Assembly (NCBI GenBank): GCA_965205655.1
Contig: CBDBIJ010000110.1
Location: 35,784-99,783, forward strand
Reading direction: 5' to 3'
From: Candidatus Latescibacterota bacterium
GTDB taxonomy: Bacteria > Latescibacterota > UBA2968 > UBA8231
DNA: 64,000 nucleotides
Shown here in pieces: positions 4,160 through 24,087 of the stretch. The first letter of the stretch is position 1. Each line of letters begins with the position of its first letter. Under the pieces are notes generated by a model. The model was not told the DNA's origin. It worked only from the letters and a program-made list of their open reading frames with translations, and did no database searches. Both the position numbers and the translations under genes were made by a program.

Positions 4160-4190
4160 TCCCGCTCACCGAACGACTGTCGTCGTCCTT

Positions 4191-8620: not shown

Positions 8621-9130
8621 CTACTTCAGCGCCGCGAGCCTGTCCCGAGCCTTGCCCGCGAAGCCGCTCTTGGAGTGCTCCTTGGTAACCTGGCCGTAGT
8701 AGTCAGTGGCCTCGGCTTTCTTGCCGATCTTCTCGTAGCATTGCGCGATGAAGAACTTCTGTTTCGCTACATTGGGTCCCTTCGGGCTCTTGGCGACCGC
8801 CTTCTTGAGGGAATCGATCGCCTTGCTGAGCTTGTCCTGGCTCGGATAGCGCTTGGCGCCCTTGTAGTAGAGCTTGTCGAGGACCTGGTCCACGGCGCCG
8901 CGCACGCCGGCGACCGTCACCGTCTTCTGCAACTGGAGCGATTCCTGTTTCACCATATCGTCCACCTGGGTCCATATGGTGTTCATCCAGTCCTCGTCGA
9001 AGGCCTTCGATTTTGACTGCTCAGTACCAGCGGCTTCGGTCGCTGCCTCCTTTTTCTCTTCCAAAGCGCTCGTGGAGATGGCGCTCAATGCGATAAACGA
9101 TGCCGCGAAAGCGAGTGCAAACAGTTTCAT
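8621..9130 (-). CDS. small secreted Lys-rich protein with TPR-like C-terminus (hypothetical)
   Basis: Signal peptide 'MKLFALAFAASFIALSAIS'. SD GAGGAGGAGGG upstream. More AT-rich than its surroundings. Confidence 0.6.
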   Translation of the reverse strand: MKLFALAFAASFIALSAISTSALEEKKEAATEAAGTEQSKSKAFDEDWMNTIWTQVDDMVKQESLQLQKTVTVAGVRGAVDQVLDKLYYKGAKRYPSQDKLSKAIDSLKKAVAKSPKGPNVAKQKFFIAQCYEKIGKKAEATDYYGQVTKEHSKSGFAGKARDRLAALK

Positions 9131-9314: not shown

Positions 9315-10841
9315 CCCCCTTAGCAGCCTGTGGTGAAAGTCGGTGATTTTCTTGCGGCGCGGATGAGGAGCCTCTCCTTACCTTTGAGCATCAACCTTGC
9401 AGGGGAGATGCTGTCATGGCGTTGGGAAAACGGAAGCGCGCGAGCCAAGCTCAGCTGTGGGTGGCGACGCAGCACCTGAGGGCTCCGGGACATCCTTTTT
9501 ACAAGAGATTGAATGAGGTGCTGGACAAGCACGGATTCGACGAGTTTGTGGAAGAGCGGTGCACGACGTTTTACGCCGAGGGCGCCGGTCGGCCCGGCAT
9601 CCCGCCCGGGGTCTATTTCCGCCTGCTCATGATCGGCTATTTCGAGGGCATCGACTCGGAGCGTGAGATCGCCTGGCGCGTCGCCGATTCGCTGTCGTTG
9701 CGGGCATTCCTCGGCTACGAGCTCGACAAGGCTACGCCCGATCATTCGACGGTGTCTCGCACGCGCCGGCTGATCGACTTCCAGACGCATCATGAGGTCT
9801 TCGAGGGGGTGTTGAAGGTGCTGGCCACATCGAACCTGCTGAAGGGGAAGACGCTGGGCGTCGACGCCACGACGCTGGATGCCAACGCCGCCATGCGCAG
9901 CATCGTGCGCCGGGACACGGGCGAAAGTTACGAGGAGTTTCTCACGAAGTTGGCCAAGGCCTCGGGCATCGAGACGCCAACGCGAGAGGATCTGGCCAGA
10001 ATCGACAAGAAGCGCCCGAAGAAAGCGTCCAATAAGGACTGGGAACACCCGCACGATCCGGATGCCCGCATTACCAAGACGAAGGATCGTCGCACCCATC
10101 TGGCGCACAAGGTGGAGACGGCGGTGGACATGGACACCCAGGCGATCGTCGCCGTGAGTCTGCCGAGTGCCGATGAAGGCGACACCGAATCGCTGCCGTG
10201 GATGCTGGTGCGAACCGAATTGAACGTGGAGGCCGTGTCGCAGGATCCCGAGGCCAGGAAGCATCTGCATCCCAAACCGTTGTCGGAAGTCGTCACCGAC
10301 AAGGGGTATCACAGCAACGAGGTGCTGGTCGATCTCAAAGCCAGTGCCATTCGCAGCTACATTTCCGAACCGGATCGCGGGCGTCGAGATTGGAAGGACA
10401 AAGCGGAAGCACAACAGGCGGTGTATGCCAATCGCCGACGCATTCGCGGCAACCGCGGGCAGGCGCTGCGGCGTAAGCGCGGCGAGCTGCTCGAACGCCC
10501 GTATGCTCATCTGTTCGAAACCGGCGGTATGCGACGGCTGTTTCTTCGGGGCCGACAAAACATCCTCAAACGCCTCGTCATTCACGTGTGCGGCTGCAAT
10601 TTCGGCCTCCTCATGCGCACCCTCTTCGGTGCGGGCACTCCGAGGGGTATGAGGGAGGCGTTTTCCCTCATTTCGTCTCTCATCACTCAGGTTTTCGCGC
10701 CTTGGCGCGCTTTGTCGCCGCCCGTGGTTCAACTCTCGGGCACTGCTCGATTTTCGTCGCCATTGGCGGCAACTCGCACCACGAATCTCAGGCCACCCCA
10801 AATCTTCCCAAACGGGGCTTTAGCCACGGGCTGCTAGGGGC
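9315..10841 (+). mobile_element. IS5/IS1182-superfamily insertion sequence with imperfect terminal inverted repeats
   Basis: IRL CCCCTTAGCAGCCTGTGGTGAAAG (from ~9316) versus reverse complement of IRR CCCCTAGCAGCCCGTGGCTAAAG (ending ~10841). A single transposase ORF ends inside IRR. Confidence 0.75.
9416..10837 (+). CDS. IS5/IS1182-family transposase (DUF772 N-terminus + DDE)
   Basis: 473 aa. 'GRPGIPPGVYFRLLMIGYFEGIDSEREI...PDHSTVSRTRRL', 'GVDATTLDANA', 'VVTDKGYHS', 'ERPYAHL'. Confidence 0.9.
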   Translation: MALGKRKRASQAQLWVATQHLRAPGHPFYKRLNEVLDKHGFDEFVEERCTTFYAEGAGRPGIPPGVYFRLLMIGYFEGIDSEREIAWRVADSLSLRAFLGYELDKATPDHSTVSRTRRLIDFQTHHEVFEGVLKVLATSNLLKGKTLGVDATTLDANAAMRSIVRRDTGESYEEFLTKLAKASGIETPTREDLARIDKKRPKKASNKDWEHPHDPDARITKTKDRRTHLAHKVETAVDMDTQAIVAVSLPSADEGDTESLPWMLVRTELNVEAVSQDPEARKHLHPKPLSEVVTDKGYHSNEVLVDLKASAIRSYISEPDRGRRDWKDKAEAQQAVYANRRRIRGNRGQALRRKRGELLERPYAHLFETGGMRRLFLRGRQNILKRLVIHVCGCNFGLLMRTLFGAGTPRGMREAFSLISSLITQVFAPWRALSPPVVQLSGTARFSSPLAATRTTNLRPPQIFPNGALATGC

Positions 10842-10851
10842 TGCGCAGAAA

Positions 10852-11808
10852 TTAGTTGGCATTTAGACAGGTCGGATGAGGCGGTTGAATGGTGTAGTTC
10901 CATTGCGGCAAGATCGCGTCGTGTTGAATCTCGATCTGGCGGTAGAGTTCCGTGCTGATCTTTTTGCCGGTGTCGTAGCGTTTGCGGTTGAGGGTGGCAT
11001 CGACCGTCAGGCCGGTCTTTGTGGTGGTGGTGCGCAAGTAGTTGAGGATGAGCGCATAGGACTCCAGCGGCACCCCGGCCCAGTTGAGGCTGATGAAACT
11101 GAAGAGGCGGTGGTCGATGGGATTCCACTTGGAGGCTCCCGGCGGATAGTGACAGACCGTGACCGGCAGAGAGTAGCTGTGCACCAGCCGCTGGGACAGA
11201 CAGTATTTCCACAGGTGCGATTGCGCGCTGTTACTGCCGCCGGTATCGCAGAGGATGAGCAACTCGCGCATATCGGGGTGATGATACCAGCCGTAGGTGG
11301 TTAGCCAGGTTTCGATGGCGTCGACGGCGAATTCGGCGGTGTCGTGAGAGGTGCCGACGACGACCGTACCGGCGTTCCTCTGCGGGTCGTAGATGCCGTA
11401 GGGCAGGGCCACGCCAAAAGACTGAGAGCGAAAGTCGTGGGTGAGCACCTCCCGCCCCATCCAGCACCAGGTTTGCCCGGGGTTGAGGAACAGACCCACC
11501 AGCTCGCGTTTCTTGCTGTCGACGCTGATGACGGGCTGGCCCCGGTCCTCAAAGCTTGCCTTGATGGCACTGAGATGACGAAACTGCTGGTCGCGCTGCG
11601 GATGACGGGTCTCCCCGATGCTCTTGCGGTTGCGCTGCAGCGAAAAATTGAGTCGCTTGAGGCAGGCGGCCACGGTGTTCGGGCTGGCGGCGACCCCTTC
11701 GGCGGCCAGCGTCTTGCTCACGGAGCGCGTGCTCTTCCTCGACCACTTCAACCCGGTCATGGGATCACCGGCCGTGTCGTCGACCAGCAGCGCCTCGATT
11801 CGGCTCAT
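10852..11808 (-). CDS. ISAzo13-family transposase, catalytic C-terminal part
   Basis: 'GDPMTGLKWSRKSTRS', 'HPQRDQQFRHL', 'PVISVDSKKRELVG', 'ILCDTGGSNS', 'VCHYPPGASKWNPIDHRLFSFIS' match the ISAzo13 (Rhodopirellula-type DDE) family. Confidence 0.85.
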   Translation of the reverse strand: MSRIEALLVDDTAGDPMTGLKWSRKSTRSVSKTLAAEGVAASPNTVAACLKRLNFSLQRNRKSIGETRHPQRDQQFRHLSAIKASFEDRGQPVISVDSKKRELVGLFLNPGQTWCWMGREVLTHDFRSQSFGVALPYGIYDPQRNAGTVVVGTSHDTAEFAVDAIETWLTTYGWYHHPDMRELLILCDTGGSNSAQSHLWKYCLSQRLVHSYSLPVTVCHYPPGASKWNPIDHRLFSFISLNWAGVPLESYALILNYLRTTTTKTGLTVDATLNRKRYDTGKKISTELYRQIEIQHDAILPQWNYTIQPPHPTCLNAN

Positions 11809-12547
11809 GAGTTTTTTTTAATGCCGGTCGCCCGGCTCCCACAGCGCGGACGCGATCTATGGAAACGCCACCGCTGTGCAATTCCTGCCGTCCCCGAGCC
11901 ACGGTCTTGACGTTGAGCCCGGTCCAACCCGCGACGATGGTGTCGCCGCCGCGACCCAGACGCAGCGACTCGAACCCGGCATACAGACGCCGCTGCTTTT
12001 CGTTGAGGGTCGCCAGAAAGGCCTGCAGGTGGGGACGCAGGTCGGCCTCCAGACCGAGGCCCATGAAGGAGACCGCTTCGGCCTGCACCTGCTGCTGGCG
12101 GTGCGCCAGTTGCGCGGAGCCGTCGTGCACCGAGACGTACAGGTACTCGCCGCCGATCTGGTGGCGCAGCACCCGTCCGCGACGATACAGGCTCAACAGC
12201 GCGGCGTGCACCCGCACCCCGAGCACATCCTCCAGCTCGGCGGACACCCAACCGCCAGCCGCCGCGTCCACCAACTGCGCCATCGTCTCCACCAGCGTAC
12301 CATGACGCGAAAACCGGATGCCCGTAGAGGACCACAATCCATGGCCATCCCAGCGTGCGATACGCTCCAGGGTGTAATACCTGCCCGCATGAGAATAACT
12401 GCTGTGATAATCCAGCTGGCGCAGCTTGCGCAGCGCCGTCATCTTCACCGGCGTACCCAGGGCTGCCTTCACCTGTGCCAGGTCGAGCACCTTGCGCGCG
12501 TCGAAGGCCCGCACCAGCTCCTTGGTGGCGTATCGAATCGGTCGCAT
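11765..12547 (-). CDS. ISAzo13-family transposase, N-terminal part (frame change at A8 tract 11812-11819)
   Basis: The C-terminus '..LNEKQRRLYAGFESLRLGRGGDTIVAGWTGLNVKTVARGRQEL...VGAGRPALKK' matches the family N-terminal HTH region up to the conserved GGGRKK position. The downstream part continues in another frame. Confidence 0.7.
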   Translation of the reverse strand: MRPIRYATKELVRAFDARKVLDLAQVKAALGTPVKMTALRKLRQLDYHSSYSHAGRYYTLERIARWDGHGLWSSTGIRFSRHGTLVETMAQLVDAAAGGWVSAELEDVLGVRVHAALLSLYRRGRVLRHQIGGEYLYVSVHDGSAQLAHRQQQVQAEAVSFMGLGLEADLRPHLQAFLATLNEKQRRLYAGFESLRLGRGGDTIVAGWTGLNVKTVARGRQELHSGGVSIDRVRAVGAGRPALKKTHEPNRGAAGRRHGR

Positions 12548-12752
12548 ATGTTACCTTTGGGCCTGGTAGGAGCGGTGTATATACACAATAGTAACATAAC
12601 GACCAGCCAGGGGCAATGGGACCCCGTGAGAATGAATACCGCCGATACAACCAACCCATGATTATGTGCTTTCTGATCTCAACAATATCCTCATAATTAA
12701 TGGACAGCTACTAAGAACGCCTGCCGCGACAAACCCGTTCCTCAGCGGACGT

Positions 12753-15700
12753 TCATTCCCCAGAGAGCAGATCGAGATAGCCTTCATATCTGACGTCCAT
12801 TTCGACGACCTGGCGATAGATGACCGCCGCTTCGTGACGACGTCCCTGGAGATAACGAGTGATAGCCATGTTGAGCCGAATCCCGGCGTTACCCGGCATC
12901 AGTTCCTCGGCTCGCTCGAACACCGCGAACGCCTCGTCGTACTCTCCCCGACGGGCGAGAACGACGCCTTTCGAGTTGAAGGCGTCACCCATGGCGGGGT
13001 CCGCGGCGATGGCCCTCTCGAGCCGCTCTAGTGCCTTGTCCCATTCGTCCTGCTGCAGGTAGCGCACAGCGATCGCGTAGTTCTCGTCGGCCGATTCCGA
13101 GGCGGCCAGAAAGTCGAAGAGACCCTCGTAGGCTTCATCCTGGGCAACGACCTGTTGATACAGAACATCCGCCGTCTTCGGATCCCCCGACAGCTGGTAA
13201 CTCAGGGCCAGATTGAGTTGAAACCCCATCTGGTCCGGATCGAGCTGAGACGCCTGATCGAAGAGCTCACGTGCCTCCAGGTAACGGCCCTGGCGGCACA
13301 GAACGACGCCCTTGGCGTTGATGGCATCGGCGAACTGGGAATCGCTTTGCAGGGCGAAGTCGAACTGCTCCACTGCCTTGTCGAGTGACTGCTGCCGCAG
13401 ATAGCTGACACCCACATCGTAGTATCCCTGGGCATCGCCAACCGTGGCCATAAAGTCGAACAGCTCGGCGTATGAGTCGTCGAGGGCGACGACGCCTTCG
13501 AACATGAGATCGGCGGTCTGGCGCTCGCCCTTCAGGTAGTAGGCCAGGGCGATATTCATGCGGAATCCGTTGTTCTCTTCGAGCTCCAGTGCCTCGCGAA
13601 ACAATTCCAGCGATTGGTCGTATTGTCCCTGCTTCGTCAGGATGACGCCGATGGCGTTGATGGCGTCGGCGTAGTCCGGCTTCATACCCCGGGCGCGCTC
13701 CAGCATCTGGAGAGCTTTTTCCAGATGGTTGGCGCGCAGGTAGGCGACGCCCGCATCGTAGGCGCCGTCGGGCGTATCGAGGGAGGTGACGGCCCCGAGG
13801 GCGATCTGATCGGTCCGCTGGTCGAAGTAGGCGACGTCCCGCGACAGCAGACTGTCGACGGAATCGGGTGCCGGGAGGTCTATCGATACAGCTGGCAGCA
13901 CCGCCGGTTTGTAGGTCTGCAGCCACTGCTGCACATACACTTCATTGATCAGTTTGCGAGCCTTGAGCCGCTTGTATTCGGCCACGCCGTTGCGCCAGGC
14001 GTCGGCGAAGGTGAAACCGAACATCGTCGTTTCAACGGGAATCCACACCCTCCCTTCCCACACCACGTATTCGGCCGAGCTGACGAAATGATCCTCGGCT
14101 CGGTCGACGGGAATGCCGCTGTCGAACATGAGATAGATATGGCCCTTCCCCGGATCGTTGGCCTCGAGGAAGGCGGTATCGATGCTCAGGTTCTCGAGCA
14201 GCGAGGCGTAGAGAACGGTCAGGTCGTCGCAGTCCCCGATCTTCGTGTCGACCCCTTCCTCCTTGTAGAGCAGCTCGCTCGGATACTGGACGGTGTCGAA
14301 GATCGTCTTGTCATCGGAGACGTTGGCGAATGGGGTTTTCTGATCGGCCTGGTAACTCAGACTGTAGACGCCCATGGCGTCGAACAGGACGATGGCCTTG
14401 CCGATGTTCGAGCGGTTGAACTTGCGCGCCAGCAGGCCATCGTATCGTTGCACAAGGCCGCGCGCCATGCCGGCGATGGCCAAGTCGGCGGGGGTCACGA
14501 AAGCGGCTGCCATTCCCTCCACATTCCAGCTGAGTTTTCCCTTGCCGGCGACGTAGACCCGCTCGAGCTGCTTCTCCACGACCTGCTCCCGCCGGTTGCG
14601 GGTGTAGGCAACCTGGACGATCGGTGTCACGAAGTTGTCGAAGTAGGCCTCGGACTCGTTGAACAGGTCCTGATCGAAGGTCACCTTGAAGCTGTACTTC
14701 TCCGTGCTCTGGGGCGGCAGCACAACATTTTCGGTGTGGGGGATGCTCATCATCTTCGGCAACAGAACCCTAACGACGGCCTCGATCGGCCCGGCGGCGG
14801 AGTTGCCGATGACGACATCCAGAAAATCGGTCTCCTCGTAGTGCCGGTACAACGAGCGGAACACCGGGTTCGGCCGAATCGTCGCATCCTTGATTGTGAC
14901 GACTCGCGGATTGTAGGAAAGCGAAAGAGCCGTGTAGTGAGTGGCGTCGAGAATCGGGTGACGCTCGAAGGCGTAGTCGAGCTGGAGAAAGCGATACTTC
15001 ACCCCCAGTCCGAAGCCGGCTGTGGTGGCATCGCCTCGACTCTCCGGTGTGTCGAGCTCAGTCTTGAGTCCAGCCCTCAGAGCAAGCTGGCCGGCGATCC
15101 AGTACTCGGCTCCCAACCGGGCGTGATCGTCGATGTCGGCGGCGACGGTGAGGCCTTCGATCGGCTTGTGAGCCAGACCTATGCGGTACCGGGCTTCGAA
15201 CATCTCCTCGCTCAACCCTCCCTCGTGCTCCACCGAGGTGCCACCGAGGTCTTGGACTGACAGACCGAGCCTGACGCCGTACGGCAGCGGCACGAGCAGA
15301 CCGACATCGAAGCCCGTGCCGGAGGCGTTCATGACCGACGTCCCGTCGAGATCCGCATCCTGGCTGATGTATTTAGCCGTGGCACCGATAGAGGCGTTGC
15401 CGACGTACGGCTTCAGTCGCTGAATGCTGTTCCGGTAGCCGTAGGCGATGCCGAACTTGCTGTGCCCCGACTTGAGTCCGAGACCGCGGCTGACATCGTC
15501 GAAACCGCGGTAAAACCAGTCGATACCGAGGGCGTGGTTGTCTGATACCGGCAGGACGTAGCTCAGATACGACTCGTTGAGTCCCAGGCCGAAACGATCG
15601 GCATAGGACAGGTCGAGCTCCTGACGCTGCAGCGAAGCGATGGCGGCGGGGTTCAGGTTGACGGCGGTAGCGTCGGAGCCCACGGCGACGAAGGCCCCGC

Positions 15701-15857
15701 CCATGCCGATGGCTCTGACCCCCAGATCGGGCTGCTTGGAGGTGGCGGCGGAGACGGGCAGCGAGAGCAGCAGCACGGTCACCGCTGCCGCACTCACGGC
15801 GCGACAGCGCGGTGCTGGATTCGGAATCCCCTTCTCAGTCTTGAGGTATCGAGGCAC
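12753..15857 (-). CDS. fusion protein: PorV/FadL-like outer-membrane beta-barrel + transglutaminase-like Cys-His core + three TPR super-repeats
   Basis: 1034 aa. Signal peptide. 'LGVRAIGMGGAFVAVGSDATAVNLNPAAIA...HYTALSLSYN' barrel. 'GDCDDLTVLYASLLENLSID..GHIYLMF..GRVWIPVETT'. C-terminal ~345 aa of TPR. Confidence 0.8.
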   Translation of the reverse strand: MPRYLKTEKGIPNPAPRCRAVSAAAVTVLLLSLPVSAATSKQPDLGVRAIGMGGAFVAVGSDATAVNLNPAAIASLQRQELDLSYADRFGLGLNESYLSYVLPVSDNHALGIDWFYRGFDDVSRGLGLKSGHSKFGIAYGYRNSIQRLKPYVGNASIGATAKYISQDADLDGTSVMNASGTGFDVGLLVPLPYGVRLGLSVQDLGGTSVEHEGGLSEEMFEARYRIGLAHKPIEGLTVAADIDDHARLGAEYWIAGQLALRAGLKTELDTPESRGDATTAGFGLGVKYRFLQLDYAFERHPILDATHYTALSLSYNPRVVTIKDATIRPNPVFRSLYRHYEETDFLDVVIGNSAAGPIEAVVRVLLPKMMSIPHTENVVLPPQSTEKYSFKVTFDQDLFNESEAYFDNFVTPIVQVAYTRNRREQVVEKQLERVYVAGKGKLSWNVEGMAAAFVTPADLAIAGMARGLVQRYDGLLARKFNRSNIGKAIVLFDAMGVYSLSYQADQKTPFANVSDDKTIFDTVQYPSELLYKEEGVDTKIGDCDDLTVLYASLLENLSIDTAFLEANDPGKGHIYLMFDSGIPVDRAEDHFVSSAEYVVWEGRVWIPVETTMFGFTFADAWRNGVAEYKRLKARKLINEVYVQQWLQTYKPAVLPAVSIDLPAPDSVDSLLSRDVAYFDQRTDQIALGAVTSLDTPDGAYDAGVAYLRANHLEKALQMLERARGMKPDYADAINAIGVILTKQGQYDQSLELFREALELEENNGFRMNIALAYYLKGERQTADLMFEGVVALDDSYAELFDFMATVGDAQGYYDVGVSYLRQQSLDKAVEQFDFALQSDSQFADAINAKGVVLCRQGRYLEARELFDQASQLDPDQMGFQLNLALSYQLSGDPKTADVLYQQVVAQDEAYEGLFDFLAASESADENYAIAVRYLQQDEWDKALERLERAIAADPAMGDAFNSKGVVLARRGEYDEAFAVFERAEELMPGNAGIRLNMAITRYLQGRRHEAAVIYRQVVEMDVRYEGYLDLLSGE

Positions 15858-15868: not shown

Positions 15869-17335
15869 CTATGGCTCTTTAATCGTTATCTGCTCGCCGC
15901 CTGAAACCGGTCCCTGTATGGGCGCCGTCTCATTGCCCGGGTAAATGACCTGAACATTGTATGGTCCGGCAGGAGCTCCGAAGATCACCTCGGCCGGGCC
16001 GCTCCCGGGCAAGACCTGTCGGTAGGCCACCAGCACAAGTGAATCCGGTTCGTTCGCGTCGAACAGGCGCACCTGGGCACCGAGACCGAAGAAGTTGTTG
16101 CCTCCCGTCTCGGGACCCTTGCCGCGAACGAGGACCTTGATGAACAGTGAGTCGGGCGTCTCGTTGTGGAGGAGACTGTTGCCAAATCCAAAACCGTTTG
16201 TTCTGTAAATGTCCGGGGCGCCGTCGCCGTCGAAATCGCCCCATCCTGCAGCAAGGTGAGGGGTGAAGACGGCGGCGATTCCCGCCTCCGCTGTGGCGTC
16301 TCGGAAGGTGCCATCGCCGTTGTTGGCCATGAGGGCGTCCGGCTGCTGTTGCCTGTCGGCTCCGGTGGCAAGGTAGAGGTCGAGATTTCCGTCCCCATCG
16401 TAGTCCGACCACGCTGCCATCGACGTCAACCAGCCGGAGCCCACCTCGCGCACATTCGCGGCTTCGCCCACATCGACGAATGTCTCGTCCCCGTCGTTGC
16501 GATACAGGCTGTTGGCGCCGACGTTCGCCACGAAGGCGTCCATGTCGCCGTCGTTGTCGTAGTCCCCCCAGGCGGCGCTCTGGCCGATTTCCTTGTTGGC
16601 GACGGACAGGGCGCAAGCGATCTCGGAGAACAAACCGCTGTCGCTCAGATCGTTGCGGTAGAGGCCGTTCTCCTGCTCTCTGTTGACGACGTAGAGGTCG
16701 AGATCACCGTCGTTGTCGTAGTCGACCCAGTTGAAGCCGTTCGTATCCCGGCGGTCTCCGACGCCCACATCGAGCACCTGAGCAAAGGTGCCGTCCGCAT
16801 TGTTGCTATAGAGCTCATTGTCGTGGTAGTACTTCCCTACATAGATGTCGAGATCGCCGTCATTGTCGTAGTCGCCCCAGCCGGACGATGTCTCATTGCC
16901 GCGCTTGTCCAGGTTGATGGAGGCAAGGCTGCGGCCGACCTCGGTGAAATCAGCGGCCTCGTTCTCGTAGAGAAAATCCTGAACTGAGAAGTCGGTGACG
17001 TAGAGGTCGAGGTCGCCGTCGTTGTCGTAGTCGCCCCAGGCGGCCGACGTGCTGTTGCCGTCCTCGATGTCGATACCGAGTGCGACCGCCGTATCGGTGA
17101 ATGTGCTGTCGCCGTTGTTTCTGTAGAGCTTGTTCGGGGGGATGATCGTTGCGGTGCCCCAATTGGTGACGTAGAGATCGAGGTTTCCGTCGCCGTCGTA
17201 ATCACCCCAGGCGAAGTTCGTGCTGAACAGGCCCGGGTTGTCCACCCCGGCTGCAACCGATATGTCGGTGAGCGTCTGCGCTTGGAGGCCGGCGGCCATG
17301 AGGCCGCAGAGAGCTACCGCTGCGAATCGCCTCAT
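15869..17335 (-). CDS. CRTAC1-like FG-GAP/VCBS repeat protein with ASPIC/UnbV C-terminal domain
   Basis: Start taken at 'MRRFAAVALCGLMAAGLQAQ' (signal peptide). At least 6 'WGDYDNDGDLDLYV' repeats. The ATG overlaps the TGA of the upstream giant gene (ATGA 17332-17335). The 17440 start in the ORF track is an Arg-rich artefact. Confidence 0.85.
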   Translation of the reverse strand: MRRFAAVALCGLMAAGLQAQTLTDISVAAGVDNPGLFSTNFAWGDYDGDGNLDLYVTNWGTATIIPPNKLYRNNGDSTFTDTAVALGIDIEDGNSTSAAWGDYDNDGDLDLYVTDFSVQDFLYENEAADFTEVGRSLASINLDKRGNETSSGWGDYDNDGDLDIYVGKYYHDNELYSNNADGTFAQVLDVGVGDRRDTNGFNWVDYDNDGDLDLYVVNREQENGLYRNDLSDSGLFSEIACALSVANKEIGQSAAWGDYDNDGDMDAFVANVGANSLYRNDGDETFVDVGEAANVREVGSGWLTSMAAWSDYDGDGNLDLYLATGADRQQQPDALMANNGDGTFRDATAEAGIAAVFTPHLAAGWGDFDGDGAPDIYRTNGFGFGNSLLHNETPDSLFIKVLVRGKGPETGGNNFFGLGAQVRLFDANEPDSLVLVAYRQVLPGSGPAEVIFGAPAGPYNVQVIYPGNETAPIQGPVSGGEQITIKEP

Positions 17336-20300
17336 CTGACCACCGCCACTACTTTCTCGGCTTGCTCGCCGGAGGCGGTGACGACGACGATGTAGAGGCC
17401 GCTGGCGACGACTCCACCATCTTCGTCGCGCCCGTTCCATGGTATCGTAAGGCGGCCCTGGCCATAGGGCTGGTCGCGCTTGATGACCCTCTCGAGTCGG
17501 CCGGAGGCGTTGTAAACCCGCACCGTGACATCTGCGGGACTGCTGAGGTCGAAAGAGACGTCAGTGATGGCTCTCAGACCCCCCGCTGGTGAGAATGCGC
17601 GCGGCTGGCAATCGAGGTCTCGGATTTTCGCGGTACCCACAGCGGCCTGCGTATCCACGAACAGGCCGAAGGTGCTCAGTTTCAGTTCCTTTACTGAAGT
17701 GGCCACCTGTTTCAGCGCCGGCTCCGATGTGCCGCCGACCCGTAGCCACTGCCCTTCTGTCAGTTCGAAGATCCCCAGCTCGCTCGGGTTGTGTTCGCCG
17801 AGGTCGCCCAGGTCGTAACGGAAGGTCATGGTCACCGGCTTGCGCAGCGCGCTCTCGCCGATATTCATCTCCCAGGCGCTGCCGACGGGAACCGGGTCCT
17901 CGCCTTGTGACGGTGCGGCGGCAGAGGAAACGGTTTTCCCCGCCGGCTGATCGGCGGCCGGGCGAATGATCACCTCCACCTTACCGATGTCGCTCGGCAG
18001 CGCATTTGGCGGGAAGTAGAGCTCGACGCTGCCCTCCGCGTTGGTCACGGTGCCGCCCGCTGCCGCGTCGGGCAGCTCTCCTGCGGTCTGAAAAGTTCCG
18101 TCGAATCCAGTCTCCGCTCTCTCGCCGAGGACCGAGCGATCGATGACGAACTCGTATTCCGTGAAGGGCCGGAAGCCTCCTTGAGGCGCGAAGTTGACGA
18201 TCGTCTGAGCCGGATCCTCAAACCCGAAACCTGTGATTGGCGTCAGCTCGAAAGGCGCATCCGGGTCCTCCTGTAGATCGACGATACGTCGAGCTCTGAG
18301 CTGGAAGCCGGACTGGTCGGCGGTGGCGACCGGTCCCGAGAATACGATCCGCACTGGGGGGGATGTCACAGACACTCCCTCGGCACCGAATGGTGGATTG
18401 GCTTCGACGAGCGTGGGCAAGTCGGTGAGAAAGGTGAATTGATCGTCGGGTCGATTCGCCAGGGCCCCCCCGAGTCGAGAGCTCACGACCACTTCATAGG
18501 AACTCCCCGAGACGAAATCGACTTCCGGCAGACTGGCTGTAAAAGTCTCGTCGACGTAGATGAACTCACCGTCCTCGAGCGCGATCGGATCGCCACCGCG
18601 GCTCAGACGGATGTTCTGCGAGTTGACCAGGTCGCGTTGCAGCGCGGCGGAAAAGACGATCTCCACACGTCTGGCTCCGGCGGCGATCGAGGTGCCGTCG
18701 GTCGGCGATGTGGAGACGACACTCGGAACGAGCGTCGCGAATCCCAGGCGAGTATCGGTGCTAGCGCGCGGGCCGCCCAACCGGGCGCTGACGACTACGT
18801 CGTACGCCGATCCCGGAATCAAATCGATCTGGGGCAGGCTGATGATGAACTGCTCCTGATCGTACAGGAACTCGTCCTCGGGCAGAGAGAGGGCTGCACC
18901 ACCCCGCGTGACCGTCACGTTTTGGGAGTTTATCAGATCCTCGTCCAACGGATCGGAAAAGGAGAGTCGAACCCGGCGAGGGCCAGCCGTTACCTCGCTG
19001 CCGCTCTCGGGCTCGGTAGAAACCACTTCAGCCACCCGCGTGGCGAAGCCCCAGCGGAAATCGTCGGTTGCTCTCGGACCCGCTACAGAGCGGGTAATCA
19101 CTACCTGATAGGAGGTGCCACCCCGCAAGCGGCCGGCCGCGGGCCCGAATGAGAGGGTACCCGCCTCGCCGTCGAAGACCGGTGCCGTGATCTGCACGGA
19201 CTGACCCTCGCCCAGCAGCCGTACATGCTCAGCTAGCTCTTCATCGTCGATGTCGGTGTCGAAAACGGCTGCGATCGTCCCTTCGAGTGCGGAAACAGCC
19301 GAATCAGCAGCGGCTGGCGCCACGCTCACCGTATCCGGTATCGCCGTCTGGAATGACCACGAAATCGGCTGGCCTGCCCCGAGTGGTCCGCTGACCGATG
19401 AATTGATTTGCACGACGTAGCCACTGCCGACCTGCCAGCCGGTTGCGGGCGCGAATCCATAGCGACCCTCGCCACGATCGGTCGGATCGTCGGCGCGCAG
19501 CTCAAGTGGCACGCCCCCACGCGCGAGGCTGAAGTTGCCGGCGCTCAATTGGTCTTCGTCGAGGGGCACGCTGAACTCGATGACCGCCTCTTCGAGGCCG
19601 ATGGTGACGTCATCGGCCCCCTCGGTAGGTAGCACCGAGACCCGGCTGGGCACGGCCGTGCTGAAACTCCAGCTATAGTCTCCCACTGCCTGTCGCAACG
19701 GACCTCCCACCACCCCCGAAACGACCACCTGGTATTGAGCCCCAGGGCGCAGGCCTTCTGCAGGTTGAAACGACAGCACTCCAGTTGTGGGGTTGTATTC
19801 CTCCTCCGTCGCATCGATGGCGCGCCCCTGCTTGAGGAGCGTCACGCTGCCCGACACTGCCTCTTCGTCGAGCAAGCCGTCGAACCCGATCGATATCGAT
19901 GGATCAGCCGCCGACACCGCAGCGTCGCCGTCGTCCGGGGTCCGTGCGGTAACCCGGGGCACGGCGGTGCTGAACGACCAGGTGAAGTCGCCCTCGGCCA
20001 CCAACCGCAGCGGCCCGGCGAGCGAGCCAGAGATCGTCACGTCGTAGCGGGAGCCTGGCTTGAGCGCTTCGCCAAGATCGATGGAAAGGGTGTTGGACGT
20101 ACCGACGAATAAAGCGTCGGCGACTACTACTGAATCGCCCTCCCGCCTTACCTGCACCGCATCAGCTTCCTCCAGTAGCGACTCGATGAGGCCGCCATCG
20201 AAGGTGGCGATTATGCGCCCGTCATCGATGGCTACGCTCGCGGTTCCGTCCGCGGGCTCGGTGCTCACGAGCTGAGGTACGTTGATGCTGAAATTCCAGG

Positions 20301-23300
20301 ATATGGCGTTCGCCGGGCGATTGCCGGCCAGGTCCTCTACGGCGGCTGACACTTCGACGCTGTACTGCGTCCCTGGCAGGAGACCCCCGGCCGGAGCCAG
20401 GACGACTGTATTGTCATCGGCGCTGTAGAGGGGGGCATCGGCCAGCGCTACAGGTGAATTTCCCGCGGTGATTTGGAAGTTGTCGGCGACGACAGTCTGC
20501 TGATCGATGGGCTCTGAAAAGGTGATCCTGAGCCGTGTCGTCGAATCTGGCACGCCAACGGCGGCGAACCCGGGCGCGGCTGAGCTGACCGCAGGCAGCT
20601 GTGTGTCGACTGAAAACACGCCGGTCGAATCGAATGGCACGAGCGTGTTTCCCTTGATGTCCTCCAGACCCCTGACAGAAACTGAAGCCGCTCCCGACGG
20701 CATGGATTCTGCAACCGTCAGCTCACCGGTCCATGTGAGCCCGGTGTAGCGAACTGTCCGGAACTGGAAAGGCTGTCCGTCGATGGTGGCCTCCACCAGA
20801 GGTTCCACATCTTTCTCCACTCCCGAATGCTCGTCGAGGAACTCGAAGGCGACGGTCACCGTCTGATCGATGCCAAAATTGGTGGTGTCGGATTCGCTCT
20901 TGCTTTTGTTCAGCGTAAGCCTGTCGATAGTCGGCGGGATGACATCGACTATGAAGTGGCTTTCTGCGCTCCAATCGGAACGCGAGTAACCCACGTCCAC
21001 TGTCTGAACAGACCAGAAGTATGTGCCGCTGACCAGTTCACCGACTGAGCGGACCAGATTGTGGCCGGCGTTGCCGGGGCCCAGTGGCAGTTGGCCTGAA
21101 ATGACCGAGTCCCCTTCCGAGGTCCTACCAAGCCGAAGATTGTAGGTGAGGCTCTCCACCGGCGGAGCACCATCGTCCGAGGCGGGAAGCCAGCTCAGGG
21201 TCACCTCGTCGCCTGCGTCCTCCGCCCGCAGTCCCGAGGGGGCGGATGGGGGCACGTTGGAGTTGAGTTGCTGCGCCGTCAGATTGTCATTGACGGCCGT
21301 CGAGGTAGTGGTACCCGAGCCGGACGAGAACAGGTCGAGATCGCCGTCGCCATCGGCATCCGCCAAGGTAACGGCGCTGAAGTCGACCCCGCGCAGAATG
21401 GGAAAAGCGTCGAGCGCGAATGCCGAGTCGGGAGCTGCCTGACCTATCGTGTTTTCATACACCCTGAAGATCTTCTGCTGCTGGCCGATGTTGCCGACCA
21501 TGACGAGGTCGAGATCCTGGTCGTTGTCGTAGTCTCCCCAGGCCAGATCACCCCCCTGGATGCCTGGAAGATCGACGTCGTCTATCTCTGCGTAGGTACC
21601 CGTGCCGTCGTTGGCGTAGATGGCTGTCGAAGGGCCGTCGCTCGCCGTCACGCCTCCGGCGGCGAGATCCAGATCGCCGTCGCGGTCGTAGTCGCCGAAG
21701 GCGAGGTCGCTGGATTCCATTCCGGGGAGATCGTTTCCGGTGTCCGCGAAGCTGACGGAGCCGCTGGCGAGATCGTTGCGATAGACGGTGAAGTCTCGAA
21801 CTCCGTCGGAGCTTACGCCGGTGACGGCCAGATCGAGATCACCGTCGCCATCCACATCGCCGAACACAGATTCGCCATTGTTGAGGCCGGTCAGGTTTAC
21901 GCCGAGGGTGTCGAAATCGCCCGCGCCATCGTTCGCCCAGATCTCGGTGAACGAAAGCTGGGCGCCAGCCTCGGTCGCGCCGCTCTGACCCATCAGAACA
22001 AAATCCAGGTCGCCGTCGTTATCCACGTCGCCCCAATCGACCGAGCTCTCGGACAGGTCGGGTCTGAAGCGGATCGCCACTGCAATCCCGGCGTTGTCGG
22101 TGCCGCCACTGGTATCGGTTCGATACAGGAAGTTCGCCCGGTTGCCGATTGCATCCTCGCCTGTGATGAACAGATCGAGATCGCCGTCGCCATCGTAGTC
22201 GCCCCACGCCAGGTCACCTTCCTGAAGGGAGACGATGTCTGCATCCACAAGCGTCAGCGTGCTACCACGATTGACGTAGAGCAGGCTCTGGGCTTCGCCG
22301 CTGCGATTGAGCCCCATGATGGCCAGGTCGATGTCCCCGTCGTCATCGTAGTCGCCCCAGCTCATGGCCGACTCCTTCAGGTCGCGGATCCGCTGATCCG
22401 AGGAGACGAACCGGGTCACGACGAACGGGTCCTCCTGGGAAAACGCCGACCGGGTGAAGGTTCCGTCTACTGACTGAACGCTCCAGACGTAGGTGTCGGG
22501 TGCCAGAGAGCGGCTCAGCACGTAACTCGTTTCGAACCCGGCATTGCCCTGCCCTACGGACAGCGAGGCTGATACGATGTCTCCCGCGCCAGCCTCGGTG
22601 CCGATGCGGATGTTGTAGCTGATTGCATCCGATTCACCGTCGCTGCCGGGACTCCAGCTGAACAGGGCCCGGGTGCTGGTGACCTCCACGGGATTGAGGC
22701 TCGCAGGCGGGTTTGGGGCCGTGTTGATCGTGGTGACGCCGAGATTGCTGTAGAGAATCGTGCGACTCTCACCCGACTCGTCGACGCCGCTCGTCACCAG
22801 ATCGACTCGGCCGTCGTCATCGTAGTCAGCCCACAAGGCGAGCCCGCCGGCAAGGCCCTCCAGATTCTGCTCGATCGACACGCCGGTAACAGACCCGTTT
22901 CGATTCTCGAACACGTGGGCTTCATAGTCGGAGACGATCGTCCGGCCCGACACGGCCAGATCGGGATCGCCGTCGTTGTCGAAGTCGACCCAGTCGAGCT
23001 GACCGCCCACGGTCTGGAAGGCGTTCAGCGAGAAATCGGTGTCGCGATTGAAGGTGCCGGCGGGCCGGTTGCGGTACAGGTACAATTGGAGAGCGCGGTT
23101 CCACACCTCGTCGTGGCCGGAGATGGCGAGATCGGGATTGCCGTCACTGTCGTAGTCGGACCAGGCGAGAGAGCCCCCCTTTACGAGTGAGTCGAAGGGC
23201 AGGGATATACCGGAGTCCAGGGTCAGAGTTCCGAGTGGATCGTTGACGTAGAACTCGGTGACCCGCCGGATGCCTCCATCGGCGATGACATTCTCACCGG

Positions 23301-24078: not shown

Positions 24079-24087
24079 GTGAAATGA

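What the first reader, a model, noticed from the sequence alone, without database searches (positions are those of the whole stretch)
12753..15857. One polypeptide fusing a PorV/FadL-like barrel, a transglutaminase-like Cys-His core and TPR super-repeats
aa ~45-316: 'LGVRAIGMGGAFVAVGSDATAVNLNPAAIA' plus amphipathic strands ending 'HYTALSLSYN'. This reads like a PorV/PorQ/UPF0164-type outer-membrane barrel. That is motif recognition from memory, not a search.

aa ~520-650: 'GDCDDLTVLYASLLENLSID..KGHIYLMF..GRVWIPVETT' reproduces the Cys/His/acidic spacing of the transglutaminase-like cysteine-protease core (C543, codon 14229-14231; H573; E609).

aa ~690-1034: three tandem ~115-aa TPR units.

In T9SS, the PorV barrel and the PorU cysteine-protease sortase are separate proteins that cleave and attach CTD cargo. 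Here a barrel and a thiol-enzyme fold are fused, and the gene sits just downstream of a CTD-bearing cargo gene.

Hypothesis: this is a fused, minimal CTD-processing/attachment device. I know of no characterised protein with this architecture.
Basis: partly seen in the sequence, partly recalled or inferred. Interest (0 to 1): 0.7.

Follow-up and report, generated by a model that had tools for sequence, protein, structure and literature searches.

The report
PorV-barrel fused to periplasmic thiol-enzyme cassette
This gene encodes an outer-membrane PorV-type barrel fused to a periplasmic transglutaminase-like enzyme and TPR scaffold; the enzyme half is a widespread, unstudied cassette found in at least eight phyla, and it appears to work with a small partner protein and a membrane cyclase rather than as a cargo "sortase".

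Summary
The ORF (minus strand, 12753-15857) encodes:
- a PorV/PorQ-family barrel; a profile of the barrel region hits solved PorV 6H3I at E 9e-19
- an Ig-like sandwich
- a transglutaminase-like core with an invariant GDCDD motif and a Cys-His-Glu triad (244 of 249 relatives)
- three ~114-aa TPR units

AlphaFold2 gives pLDDT 87 for the whole protein and 93 for the middle part.

Barrel-type relatives are tightly linked to FlgD-Ig/T9SS-CTD cargo genes (33 of 37 loci), so cargo docking is plausible.

Three results argue against a PorU-like surface sortase:
- The Ig-TG-TPR part follows the last strand of a PorV-type barrel directly, which places it in the periplasm.
- It is an independent cassette (about 1,900 clusters). 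In Nitrospirota, Proteobacteria and Spirochaetes, phyla reported to lack T9SS, it is fused to NHL or Reg_prop propellers or a small N-terminal module.
- It has its own conserved partners: a small secreted protein with a near-invariant VAGVRGAE..YWKG motif, and a CHASE2 nucleotide cyclase.

One lineage has lost the catalytic His, the motif and the cyclase together, yet keeps the barrel and the cargo.

Best model: a cargo-docking barrel coupled to a periplasmic thiol peptidase and cyclase signalling unit. No paper in the searched library describes it.

The parts
12753..15857 (-). Whole ORF: barrel-Ig-TG-TPR protein. 1034 aa from GTG; the probable true start is the GTG at nt 15797 (aa 21), giving 1014 aa.
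   Evidence: the 100%-identical P0001 is 1014 aa
15747..15797 (-). Probable signal peptide (aa 21-37, VSAAAVTVLLLSLPVSA)
   Evidence: read from the sequence; low-confidence helix in the model; inference
14910..15725 (-). PorV/PorQ-family outer-membrane beta-barrel with an N-terminal FadL-like plug motif (aa 45-316)
   Evidence: NF033709 E 1e-23; 42 of 45 relatives hit it; PDB PorV 6h3i_F E 9e-19 with a profile; AF2 strands at aa 79-315
14547..14909 (-). Ig-like beta-sandwich (aa 317-437), starting 4 residues after the last barrel strand
   Evidence: AF2 models; Foldseek Ig-like, MG and FXIII sandwich hits; local HMM finds it in every cassette protein
13878..14546 (-). Transglutaminase-like alpha/beta core (aa 438-660)
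   Evidence: Pfam Transglut_core/DUF553 hits in homologues; FXIII/TG2 Foldseek hits; conservation
14229..14231 (-). Codon of C543 (TGC), the predicted nucleophile, inside the invariant GDCDD motif
14139..14141 (-). Codon of H573, the predicted general base
   Evidence: replaced by R or G only in the P0070/75/76 lineage
14031..14033 (-). Codon of E609, the predicted third triad residue (WIPVETT)
13788..13877 (-). Linker containing a long helix (aa 664-688) between the TG core and the TPR region
   Evidence: AF2 secondary structure
12756..13787 (-). TPR solenoid: three ~114-aa super-repeats (13440-13778, 13095-13439, 12756-13094), each of three TPRs plus a capping helix
   Evidence: Pfam TPR hits; units 36-44% identical; relatives carry 0-4 units
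15869..17440 (-). FG-GAP propeller protein without a CTD. Probable start is M36 at nt 17335, which overlaps the stop of the upstream gene by 4 nt. Conserved immediately upstream of the barrel gene.
17332..24132 (-). Giant FG-GAP / fn3 / Big_5 x6 protein with a C-terminal FlgD-Ig / T9SS type-A sorting domain (about nt 17335-17574). The presumed cargo docked on the barrel.
   Evidence: Pfam and TIGR04183 hits; a same-strand CTD neighbour in 33 of 37 barrel-type loci
8621..9130 (-). Small secreted partner (169 aa): signal peptide, near-invariant motif VAGVRG (nt 8897-8914), ..LYYKG, then a YbgF/CpoB/BamD-like TPR domain
   Evidence: (hhalign 99.5%)
5621..8377 (-). CHASE2 sensor fused to a class III nucleotidyl cyclase (918 aa)
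   Evidence: Pfam; a neighbour in 28 of 37 barrel-type loci and in 6 proteobacterial cassette loci
9416..12659 (.). Two insertion-sequence transposase genes that separate the cassette gene from its partner in this genome only: IS1182/IS5-like at 9416-10837 (+), and ISAzo13-family at 10852-11808 (-) with an upstream ORF at 11805-12659 (-)
   Evidence: in relatives the gap is 20-300 nt. IS ends were not found.

Best explanation
This is an envelope-spanning unit made of two separable halves.

Half 1, outer membrane. A PorV/PorQ-type barrel most likely docks the retained C-terminal sorting domain of the co-encoded giant FG-GAP/Big_5 surface protein. PorQ holds PorZ this way, PorV holds PorU, and PorP-like barrels hold type-B CTD proteins.

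Half 2, periplasm. It hangs directly under the barrel and consists of an Ig-like sandwich, a transglutaminase-fold Cys-His-Glu enzyme and a TPR scaffold. This cassette is an ancient, mobile module. I propose it acts as a thiol peptidase on, or together with, the small secreted protein encoded next to it (near-invariant motif VAGVRGAE..YWKG followed by a CpoB-like TPR domain). I also propose that it feeds the periplasmic CHASE2 sensor of the neighbouring nucleotide cyclase. The state of a surface or propeller protein would then be converted into a cyclic-nucleotide signal.

The propeller link. In phyla without T9SS the propeller is fused to the cassette. Here the propeller is a separate T9SS cargo, joined to the cassette non-covalently through the barrel.

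What is shown:
- the domain identities
- conservation of the triad
- the gene linkages
- distribution of the cassette outside T9SS phyla
- the coupled loss in one lineage

What is inferred:
- periplasmic location
- CTD docking on the barrel
- peptidase chemistry
- the small protein as substrate
- the direction of signalling
For: Barrel identity:
-. PDB PorV scores E 9e-19, and the alignment reaches PorV residue 395 of 402.

Cargo linkage:
- A same-strand CTD neighbour is present in 33 of 37 barrel-type loci, including the distant Brevinema-labelled L059, whose neighbour is a 2910-aa Big_5 x17 / FG-GAP / FlgD_ig protein.

Precedent for a dedicated barrel beside its CTD protein, with a periplasmic TPR partner:
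- the PorP-PorE-PG1035 complex and SprF-SprB (PMC9143113)
- PorU, PorZ and PorA keep their CTDs (PMC11285876)

Enzyme likely active:
- C-H-E in 84 of 84 species loci (H and E are independent of the search pattern)
- C-H-E in 140 of 142 unbiased phmmer hits

The cassette is an independent module:
- 1,926 clusters at E <= 1e-3
- N-terminal partners are the PorV barrel (37 loci), NHL propellers (28), Reg_prop (3) and a ~200-aa module (about 10)
- signal peptides on all the complete N-termini inspected

Partners:
- The small protein lies directly downstream in 29 of 37 barrel loci and 25 of 48 non-barrel loci.
- It is homologous across both sets (hhalign 99.5%, E 4e-22).
- In 52 sequences G75 is 98% conserved, R77 98% and G78 100%.
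- The CHASE2 cyclase is a neighbour in 28 of 37 barrel loci and 6 proteobacterial non-barrel loci.

Coupled loss:
- P0070/P0075/P0076 have H573 replaced by R or G; P0075 also has E replaced by Q.
- In the two loci that could be fetched, L085 (P0070) and L086 (P0075), the cargo, the FG-GAP gene, the barrel gene and the small partner are kept.
- The cyclase gene is absent from both loci.
- The partner's motif is degenerate there: SAGVPPAGQE (L085) and SAGVPPARQE (L086).

Functional precedent:
- LapG is a periplasmic, Ca-dependent, transglutaminase-fold Cys protease. It releases a giant adhesin under cyclic-nucleotide control (PMC4359373, PMC3032545).
Against: - No experiment exists for any member of the family.
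- The window protein itself gets no direct Pfam or PDB hit for the TG core.
- Foldseek support for the TG fold is weak: E about 1e-4 to 1e-3, TM 0.2-0.25, mixed with generic Ig-like hits.
- Periplasmic location is inferred from the PorV alignment and the short linker. Model coordinates could not be inspected, and DSSP shows 16 strand segments rather than a clean 14.
- The motif link is imperfect. The L003/L033/L034 clade keeps the triad and the cyclase, but its partner reads VAARRHGD. Some barrel-type loci (L028, L035, L043, L070) and most spirochaete and Reg_prop types keep the triad with no partner or cyclase nearby.
- The coupled loss comes from one lineage (three protein clusters, two loci).
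- The motif contains no conserved Gln or Lys. That argues against cross-linking at this site, but it does not prove cleavage.
- Presence of a canonical T9SS in these genomes was not tested.
Confidence: 0.45

Rival explanations
1. One reading: a fused, minimal CTD-processing and attachment device. The PorV-like barrel captures the cargo CTD, and the fused Cys-His enzyme cleaves it and/or attaches the cargo, standing in for PorU.
For: - Very strong linkage of barrel-type members to CTD genes.
- The thiol triad is conserved.
- The PorV-family barrel is the known CTD receptor (PMC11285876).
- Transglutaminase-fold enzymes can in principle act as peptidases or transamidases (PMC3495828).
Against: - The enzyme follows the last strand of a PorV-type barrel after 4 residues. 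It has no CTD of its own and ends in a TPR solenoid, so it should be periplasmic, whereas CTD removal occurs at the surface (PMC11285876).
- The cassette is abundant in phyla reported to lack T9SS, and there it has no CTD neighbour in 47 of 48 loci.
- The His-less lineage keeps barrel and cargo but loses the cyclase and the partner's motif. This ties catalysis to those components rather than to the cargo.
- The fold is unrelated to the gingipain-like fold of PorU (my own knowledge).
Confidence: 0.12
2. A purely structural scaffold. The TG-like domain is a non-catalytic peptide-binding module, as in Rad4 or Cyk3. The protein only tethers the outer membrane and its cargo to periplasmic partners or the cell wall, like PorP-PorE, BamD or CpoB-type TPR proteins.
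For: - Inactive TG-like domains that bind peptides are known (PMC3495828).
- The His-less lineage is still maintained as a full-length gene with cargo and partner.
- Large TPR arrays vary in copy number.
- The locus sits next to CpoB-like and BamD genes.
Against: - Near-universal retention of Cys, His and Glu, plus the acidic GDCDD context, across at least eight phyla and about 250 diverse sequences. This is hard to explain without catalysis.
- Loss of His is confined to one lineage and is accompanied by the other losses.
Confidence: 0.15
3. LapG-like release switch. The periplasmic TG-fold protease cleaves a periplasm-exposed segment of the giant adhesin-like cargo, or of the 523-aa FG-GAP protein, to shed it from the barrel. 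The cyclase controls shedding.
For: - The parts list closely parallels the Lap system: a giant repeat adhesin, an outer-membrane anchor, a periplasmic TG-fold Cys protease with acidic residues beside the nucleophile, and an inner-membrane cyclic-nucleotide protein (PMC4359373, PMC3032545).
- The D-C-D-D context is invariant.
Against: - No Pfam BTLCP/LapG hit among 19 cores at E <= 1.
- LapG is not among the top 50 Foldseek hits.
- No LapD-type receptor was seen.
- T9SS cargo is thought to be wholly external once docked, so no periplasmic segment is expected.
- CHASE2 cyclases sense outside-in, the opposite direction to LapD.
- Propeller-fused forms have no separate adhesin.
Confidence: 0.13
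4. An exopolysaccharide or other polymer export porin with a periplasmic TPR scaffold, comparable to BcsC, PgaA, PelB or AlgK/E. This is suggested by the upstream UpxY-like antiterminator.
For: - TPR plus outer-membrane barrel in one polypeptide.
- Weak BcsC and PrsT hits.
- A UpxY-like gene at 24208-24789.
- Wzz and cytidylyltransferase genes near L001.
Against: - Those hits cover only the TPR region.
- The barrel is specifically PorV family.
- The domain order is reversed.
- The cassette occurs without a barrel.
- No glycosyltransferase or polymerase gene is conserved in the neighbourhood.
Confidence: 0.03

Closest known systems
PorV (F. johnsoniae, PDB 6H3I) and the PorV/PorQ family of T9SS outer-membrane barrels
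   Same: The N-terminal 270 aa are homologous over essentially the whole barrel (E 9e-19 to solved PorV; NF033709 E 1e-23). They carry the same N-terminal G-x-G-G-A..NPA motif. The gene lies in the same operon as a CTD-bearing cargo gene.
   Different: Known PorV and PorQ are stand-alone proteins of about 330-400 aa. This one carries a 720-aa periplasmic extension. It scores 5.6 bits below the NCBIfam cut-off. It appears dedicated to one co-encoded cargo rather than acting as a general shuttle.
PorP-PorE-PG1035 and SprF-SprB anchoring complexes (PMC9143113)
   Same: An outer-membrane 14-strand barrel, a periplasmic TPR- and propeller-containing partner and a surface CTD protein, encoded side by side. 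The barrel anchors the CTD protein.
   Different: Here the periplasmic part is fused to the barrel, contains a thiol-enzyme fold and has no OmpA_C peptidoglycan-binding domain. The barrel is of PorV/Q type, not PorP type. The cargo CTD is type A / FlgD-Ig-like.
LapG / LapD / LapA system (BTLCP family; PMC4359373, PMC3032545)
   Same: A periplasmic transglutaminase-fold cysteine enzyme with acidic residues next to the nucleophile, a giant repeat surface protein held at an outer-membrane barrel, and an inner-membrane cyclic-nucleotide signalling protein.
   Different: No detectable sequence relationship beyond the shared fold (no PF06035 hit). The triad is C-H-E, not C-H-D. The partner is a CHASE2 cyclase (a signal producer), not a c-di-GMP receptor. 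The enzyme is tethered rather than soluble.
PorU, the T9SS C-terminal signal peptidase/sortase
   Same: A thiol enzyme associated with a PorV-type barrel and with CTD cargo.
   Different: PorU is surface-located, carries its own CTD and has a gingipain-type fold. The present domain has a transglutaminase fold, has no CTD, is predicted to be periplasmic, and also occurs in phyla without T9SS.
Animal transglutaminases (factor XIII A, TG2)
   Same: The same two-domain order, beta-sandwich then catalytic core. They are among the best Foldseek matches; the TG2 alignment spans about 398 columns.
   Different: Sequence identity is 10-17% and TM-scores are 0.2-0.25. The third residue is Glu rather than Asp. 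There are no C-terminal barrel domains.
NCBIfam NF058533 'anti-phage protein ProA'
   Same: The first ~330 positions of this 1903-position profile match the Ig+TG cassette (L058 E 7.5e-17; 5 of 45 barrel-type relatives, best E 1e-14).
   Different: The score is far below the cut-off (60 against 1500 bits). The rest of ProA is unrelated. No paper on it was found, so nothing can be transferred.

Membership tests
PorV/PorQ family (NCBIfam NF033709; solved PorV 6H3I) | Full-length match to the family profile above the curated cut-off | tested here: inconclusive
   E 1e-23, profile positions 13-324 of 326, but 84.4 bits against a cut-off of 90. 42 of 45 relatives match at E <= 1e-8, best 2e-35. NCBI names the homologue P0108 a 'PorV/PorQ family protein'.
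PorV/PorQ family (NCBIfam NF033709; solved PorV 6H3I) | Homology to an experimentally solved PorV barrel, closer than to generic FadL/TodX | tested here: met
   The profile of 14 barrel regions hits 6h3i_F at E 9.3e-19 (PorV residues 35-239 and 328-395 of 402). TodX and FadL score only E 9e-4 to 0.07.
PorV/PorQ family (NCBIfam NF033709; solved PorV 6H3I) | Closed FadL-type beta-barrel with an N-terminal plug segment | tested here: met
   AF2 at pLDDT about 90 shows short helices at aa 47-76, then 14-16 strand segments at aa 79-315. The exact strand count could not be checked without coordinates.
PorV/PorQ family (NCBIfam NF033709; solved PorV 6H3I) | Binds the CTD of T9SS cargo and operates with a T9SS | not testable with these tools
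   Only genomic linkage is available: a CTD gene in 33 of 37 loci. T9SS core genes are not in the 64-kb window, and the rest of the genome could not be read.
Transglutaminase-like superfamily (Pfam Transglut_core PF01841 / DUF553 PF04473) | Significant match to a family HMM | tested here: inconclusive
   The window protein has no hit even at E <= 10. Of homologous cores, 13 of 19 hit PF01841 (best 3.4e-5) and 10 of 19 hit PF04473 (best 1.7e-6). P0085 (24.9 bits) and L038 (26.5 bits) exceed the 20.5-bit cut-off.
Transglutaminase-like superfamily (Pfam Transglut_core PF01841 / DUF553 PF04473) | Cys at the start of a helix, then His and Asp/Glu on successive strands, in that order | tested here: met
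   C543 precedes helix 543-556. H573 lies on strand 573-579. E609 lies at the end of strand 603-608. C-H-E is conserved in 84 of 84 and 244 of 249 sequences.
Transglutaminase-like superfamily (Pfam Transglut_core PF01841 / DUF553 PF04473) | Papain/transglutaminase-like fold | tested here: met
   Foldseek of the pLDDT 92.7 model returns factor XIII and TG2 with prob 0.9-1.0 and E 4e-4 to 1e-3, but low TM and mixed with Ig-like hits. Support is modest.
PorU-type T9SS sortase | Surface-located enzyme with its own retained CTD, restricted to T9SS organisms | tested here: not met
   No CTD is present; the C-terminus is a TPR array. The position after the last PorV-type strand implies the periplasm. 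The cassette is present in Nitrospirota, Proteobacteria and Spirochaetes.
LapG / BTLCP (Pfam PF06035) | Match to the BTLCP profile or to a LapG structure | tested here: not met
   No PF06035 hit at E <= 1 in 19 cores. No LapG entry among the top 50 PDB fold matches. No PDB sequence hit with the core profile.
Inverse autotransporter (intimin/invasin type) | N-terminal barrel whose lumen carries a linker that exports the C-terminal passenger | tested here: not met
   The barrel is PorV family with an N-terminal plug. Only 4 residues separate the last strand from the Ig domain. No intimin or invasin family hit.
BcsC / PgaA / PelB-type TPR-porins | N-terminal periplasmic TPR followed by a C-terminal polysaccharide porin | tested here: not met
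   The domain order is reversed. BcsC similarity is confined to the TPR region: 35 bits against a cut-off of 858.

The most novel reading that the evidence does not exclude
The Ig-TG-TPR cassette, its small VAGVRGAE-motif partner and the CHASE2 cyclase together form a previously unrecognised periplasmic proteolytic signalling pathway. It is widespread (about 1,900 protein clusters, at least eight phyla). If so, it would offer the first candidate input for the orphan CHASE2 sensor domain. In the FCB phyla the pathway has been plugged into type IX secretion through a PorV-type barrel, so that the presence or load of a surface propeller/adhesin cargo is reported to the cytoplasm as a cyclic nucleotide.
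Probability: 0.3. Interest if true: 0.8.

Novelty: new variant of a known kind. Interest (0 to 1): 0.62.

Why it matters
Three points.

1. It would be the first PorV/PorQ-family barrel with a built-in periplasmic enzyme and scaffold. That implies T9SS cargo docking can be wired to events in the periplasm and to second-messenger signalling, not only to surface attachment.

2. The analysis uncovers a large, uncharacterised protein cassette with a near-invariant active site (GDCDD / His / Glu), found in many uncultured and biogeochemically important phyla: Latescibacterota, Marinimicrobia, Gemmatimonadota, Nitrospirota, iron-oxidising Proteobacteria and Spirochaetes. It also identifies a specific small partner protein that can be tested as a substrate.

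3. To my knowledge the ligand of the CHASE2 sensor domain is unknown. A genetically linked periplasmic peptidase and motif protein give a concrete hypothesis that is testable in vitro.

Tried and rejected
- Translating the + strand gives only stop-riddled sequence; the gene is on the - strand.
- Direct sequence searches with the middle region found nothing: Pfam at E <= 10, NCBIfam, PDB phmmer and a PDB profile of the core (A3).
- The single-sequence barrel search against PDB also found nothing. Only the barrel profile worked.
- Foldseek with the full-length model returned only TPR proteins.
- Foldseek of the middle domain against viral structures gave only generic Ig-like matches.
- Literature searches found no description of the architecture: PorV + transglutaminase-like + TPR, Latescibacteria + type IX secretion, CHASE2 + transglutaminase, and CHASE2 + gene neighbourhood + TPR.
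- Two searches for the NCBIfam name 'ProA' found nothing relevant.
- tblastn of the cassette against plasmids gave no match.
- Terminal inverted repeats of the two IS elements were not found.
- Rejected readings: inverse autotransporter, polysaccharide porin and LapG orthologue (see the membership tests).
- P0076 could not be located on any contig.

Full report
**1. The observation**

The window holds a 1034-codon ORF at 12753-15857, on the minus strand. An identical database protein is 1014 aa long (P0001). The start is therefore probably the GTG at aa 21, in front of a hydrophobic signal sequence. C543 is the TGC at 14229-14231.

AlphaFold2 with a 45-sequence alignment gives a confident model (mean pLDDT 87.4). 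It contains:
- short helices at aa 47-76
- a beta-barrel at aa 79-315
- an all-beta domain at aa 320-437
- an alpha/beta domain at aa 449-646
- a long helix at aa 664-688
- a helical repeat region to aa 1020

**2. The barrel**

- The PorV/PorQ family model NF033709 matches aa 47-313 over profile positions 13-324 of 326. E is 1e-23 and the score is 84.4 bits, just under the 90-bit cut-off.
- 42 of 45 relatives match the same model. 40 match 'PorV2', 18 match PorV proper and 8 match PorQ.
- A profile of 14 diverse barrel regions (A4) hits the solved F. johnsoniae PorV (6h3i_F) at E 9.3e-19. The alignment runs to PorV residue 395 of 402. FadL and TodX barrels reach only E 9e-4 or worse.

**3. The thiol-enzyme core**

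The window protein has no direct Pfam, NCBIfam or PDB sequence hit in aa 317-690. The family-level evidence is nevertheless consistent:
- 13 of 19 homologous cores hit Pfam Transglut_core and 10 of 19 hit the transglutaminase-like DUF553. No rival family appears.
- Two homologues exceed the DUF553 gathering score.
- G541-D542-C543-D544-D545 is invariant in the 45-sequence alignment. H573 and E609 are >=90% conserved.
- A separate model of aa 313-700 reaches pLDDT 92.7 and pTM 0.90. Its PDB fold matches include factor XIII and transglutaminase 2. The TG2 alignments span about 398 columns, covering sandwich plus core. E-values are only 1e-4 to 1e-3, TM-scores are low, and generic Ig-like hits are mixed in.
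- C543 opens a helix, and H573 and E609 lie on or at the end of later strands, as in the superfamily (PMC3495828).
- In phmmer hits that were not selected through the motif, 140 of 142 keep C-H-E and 137 of 142 keep GDCDD.

I accept the transglutaminase-like assignment and consider the enzyme probably active.

**4. The TPR region**

The TPR region consists of three units of 113-115 aa, 36-44% identical to each other. Relatives carry between zero and about four units.

**5. Genomic context in the window (all on the minus strand)**

| Position | Gene |
|---|---|
| 24208-24789 | UpxY-like antiterminator |
| 17332-24132 | 2266-aa FG-GAP/fn3/Big_5 protein ending in a FlgD-Ig / T9SS type-A sorting domain |
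| 15869-17440 | 523-aa FG-GAP protein without a CTD |
| 12753-15857 | the barrel-Ig-TG-TPR gene |
| 9416-12659 | two IS transposase genes |
| 8621-9130 | 169-aa secreted TPR protein |
| 5621-8377 | CHASE2 + class III nucleotidyl cyclase |
| 4909-5616 | CpoB-like TPR protein |
| 3389-4159 | BamD-like protein |

The rest of the window is housekeeping genes and contains no T9SS core genes.

**6. Relatives of the full architecture**

The full architecture is conserved in 112 protein clusters, mostly annotated 'tetratricopeptide repeat protein'. They come from Latescibacterota, Gemmatimonadota, Handelsmanbacteria and others.

The gene order [CTD giant] - [FG-GAP ~500 aa] - [barrel gene] - [small ~170-180 aa protein] - [CHASE2 cyclase] recurs in distant members. 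In the two most divergent loci examined, the ~500-aa FG-GAP gene (L003, L004) or the small protein (L004) is missing or too diverged to detect.

**7. Distribution of the cassette**

A scan of one genome per species with the GDCDD pattern found at least 578 relatives. I analysed the 80 best loci, L001-L004 and the window with local HMMs.

- 37 loci are barrel-type: Latescibacterota, Gemmatimonadota, Marinimicrobia, KSB1 and a Brevinema-labelled MAG.
- 48 loci lack the PorV barrel. They still have the same Ig + TG + TPR cassette at the C-terminal end of the protein.
- Of the 41 non-barrel proteins with an N-terminal region long enough to classify, 28 carry NHL propellers (often with fn3 or extra TPRs), 3 carry Reg_prop propellers with Y_Y_Y, and about 10 carry a ~200-aa N-terminal module.
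- These non-barrel loci come from Nitrospirota, Gallionellaceae, Mariprofundaceae, Acidiferrobacterales, Deltaproteobacteria, Spirochaetes and WOR-3.
- Every complete N-terminus I inspected has a signal peptide.
- An exhaustive phmmer search with aa 317-690 finds 1,926 clusters at E <= 1e-3 and 1,555 at E <= 1e-10. The cassette almost always follows 200-1300 aa of variable N-terminal sequence.

The cassette is therefore an independent, widespread module. T9SS genes are reported to be absent outside the FCB group (PMC11285876), so the cassette cannot be a T9SS-specific sortase.

**8. Linkage statistics**

| Neighbour on the same strand | Barrel-type loci | Barrel-type, >=3 kb both flanks | Non-barrel loci |
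|---|---|---|---|
| CTD-bearing gene | 33 of 37 | 22 of 24 | 1 of 48 |
| CHASE2 cyclase | 28 of 37 | 21 of 24 | 6 of 48 |

- All six non-barrel loci with a cyclase are proteobacterial. The one checked with Pfam has CHASE2 + Guanylate_cyc.
- The Brevinema-labelled locus has a 2910-aa Big_5 x17 / FG-GAP / FlgD_ig gene directly upstream.

The barrel correlates with CTD cargo. The cassette correlates with other partners.

**9. The small partner**

- The most conserved neighbour of non-barrel cassette genes is a ~130-220-aa gene directly downstream, present in 24 loci. It has TPR_6/YfiO-like hits.
- It is homologous to the small protein downstream of barrel-type genes (hhalign 99.5%, E 4e-22).
- With a joint profile it is found in 29 of 37 barrel loci and 25 of 48 non-barrel loci.
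- Across 52 sequences it has a signal peptide and a variable region. Then comes a near-invariant motif, (T)VAG(V/I)RGAE..(L)Y(Y/W)KG, with G75 at 98%, R77 at 98% and G78 at 100% conservation. A CpoB/YbgF-like TPR domain follows.

**10. A natural experiment**

- Three clusters (P0070, P0075, P0076; 797-800 aa) have H573 replaced by R or G. P0075 also has E609 replaced by Q. GDCDD is intact in all three.
- The loci of P0070 (L085) and P0075 (L086) could be fetched; P0076 could not be located. Both keep the CTD giant, the FG-GAP gene, the barrel gene and the small partner in the usual order.
- The CHASE2 cyclase gene is gone. The partner is followed directly by the CpoB-like and BamD-like genes that follow the cyclase elsewhere.
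- The partner's motif reads SAGVPPAGQE in L085 and SAGVPPARQE in L086, not VAGVRGAE.

Catalytic His, motif and cyclase are thus lost together, while barrel and cargo persist. This is a single lineage, but it is the pattern expected if catalysis, motif and cyclase form one pathway that is separable from cargo docking.

Two counter-examples exist:
- The L003/L033/L034 clade keeps the triad and the cyclase with a divergent motif (VAARRHGD).
- Several loci keep the triad with no partner or cyclase nearby.

**11. Mechanism**

PorV-type barrels bind CTDs. PorQ-PorZ, PorV-PorU and PorP-like/type-B pairs show that a barrel can permanently hold a CTD protein. Such barrels are often encoded beside their client and work with a periplasmic TPR partner (PMC9143113; PMC11285876). 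I therefore infer that this barrel docks the adjacent FG-GAP/Big_5 cargo.

The cassette begins 4 residues after a strand that aligns with the last strand of PorV. It has no CTD and has periplasmic-type partners. I infer that it is periplasmic.

The motif contains no conserved Gln or Lys, so peptidase chemistry is more likely than cross-linking at that site. This is an inference.

The closest functional precedent is LapG. It is a periplasmic, Ca-dependent, transglutaminase-fold protease, and it controls a giant adhesin together with a cyclic-nucleotide protein (PMC4359373, PMC3032545). There is no specific sequence or fold match to LapG.

Propellers are fused to the cassette where T9SS is absent. 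Where T9SS is present they are encoded as separate CTD cargo next to a barrel-cassette fusion. This 'Rosetta-stone' relationship suggests that the barrel replaces a covalent link between propeller and cassette.

**12. Verdict**

- The architecture is real, is conserved, and was not found described in the papers searched.
Cargo linkage and possible docking hold up. A PorU-like processing role for the thiol domain does not.
- It is a new variant built from known domain families, and it exposes a large uncharacterised cassette system.

Main limits:
- no experiments exist for any member
- Foldseek scores are weak
- topology is inferred, not measured
- the coupled loss comes from one lineage
- the presence of a T9SS in these genomes was not tested

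Noticed in passing
window 8621-9130 (-); motif at 8897-8914: The small secreted partner protein carries a near-invariant motif VAGVRGAE..LYYKG across 52 sequences from many phyla. The window copy has a 2-aa deletion right after it (GVRG--AVDQ instead of GVRGAEAED).
   Followed up: yes
L085 9001-12032 and L086 5167-8204 (loci of P0070 and P0075): A lineage in which the catalytic His of the TG core, the partner's motif and the CHASE2 cyclase gene are all lost together. The barrel, the CTD cargo and the FG-GAP gene are kept.
   Followed up: yes
window 9416-12659: Two IS transposase genes sit between the cassette gene and its partner genes: IS1182/IS5-like on the + strand, and ISAzo13-family on the - strand with an unassigned 284-aa ORF upstream. 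In relatives this gap is 20-300 nt, so the operon is split in this genome. IS ends were not located.
   Followed up: partly
L058 aa 801-1123 (nt 9698-10666); also 5 of 45 members of alignment A1: The Ig+TG cassette matches the first ~330 positions of NCBIfam NF058533 'anti-phage protein ProA' (E 7.5e-17, far below the cut-off). No paper on ProA was found, and the meaning of the match is unknown.
   Followed up: partly
window 15869-17440 and 17332-24132 (-): The listed ORFs overlap by about 109 nt. If the 523-aa FG-GAP gene starts at M36 (nt 17335, MRRFAAVALCGL... signal peptide), the overlap shrinks to a 4-nt ATGA-type junction, which suggests translational coupling with the giant CTD gene.
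   Followed up: partly
window 24208-24789 (-): A UpxY/NusG-like antiterminator gene (NF033644 E 4e-20, below the cut-off) lies directly upstream of the 6.8-kb cargo gene. It may be needed to transcribe the long operon. It was not seen in the same position in L001.
   Followed up: no
window 3389-5616 (-): A CpoB-like coiled-coil + TPR protein (4909-5616), a 221-aa unknown (4191-4856) and a BamD/YfiO-like lipoprotein (3389-4159) follow the cyclase. The same order is found in L001, L085 and L086, so envelope-biogenesis genes are syntenic with the locus in this lineage.
   Followed up: partly
L067, L065, L076, L080, L081, L084 and others (Spirochaetales, WOR-3): About ten cassette proteins of roughly 700 aa carry a shared ~200-aa N-terminal module. 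A related 678-aa protein (P0111), which is not one of these loci, gives a weak OMP_b-brl hit at its N-terminus (E 0.001). The module may be a second, smaller outer-membrane barrel anchor for the same cassette.
   Followed up: partly
window 53875-56676 (-) and 57374-61312 (-): A 933-aa TMEM260-like protein O-mannosyltransferase homologue, and an unusually long (1312 aa) UvrA-like ABC protein with an internal DUF4350-like insert. Neither is related to the finding.
   Followed up: no
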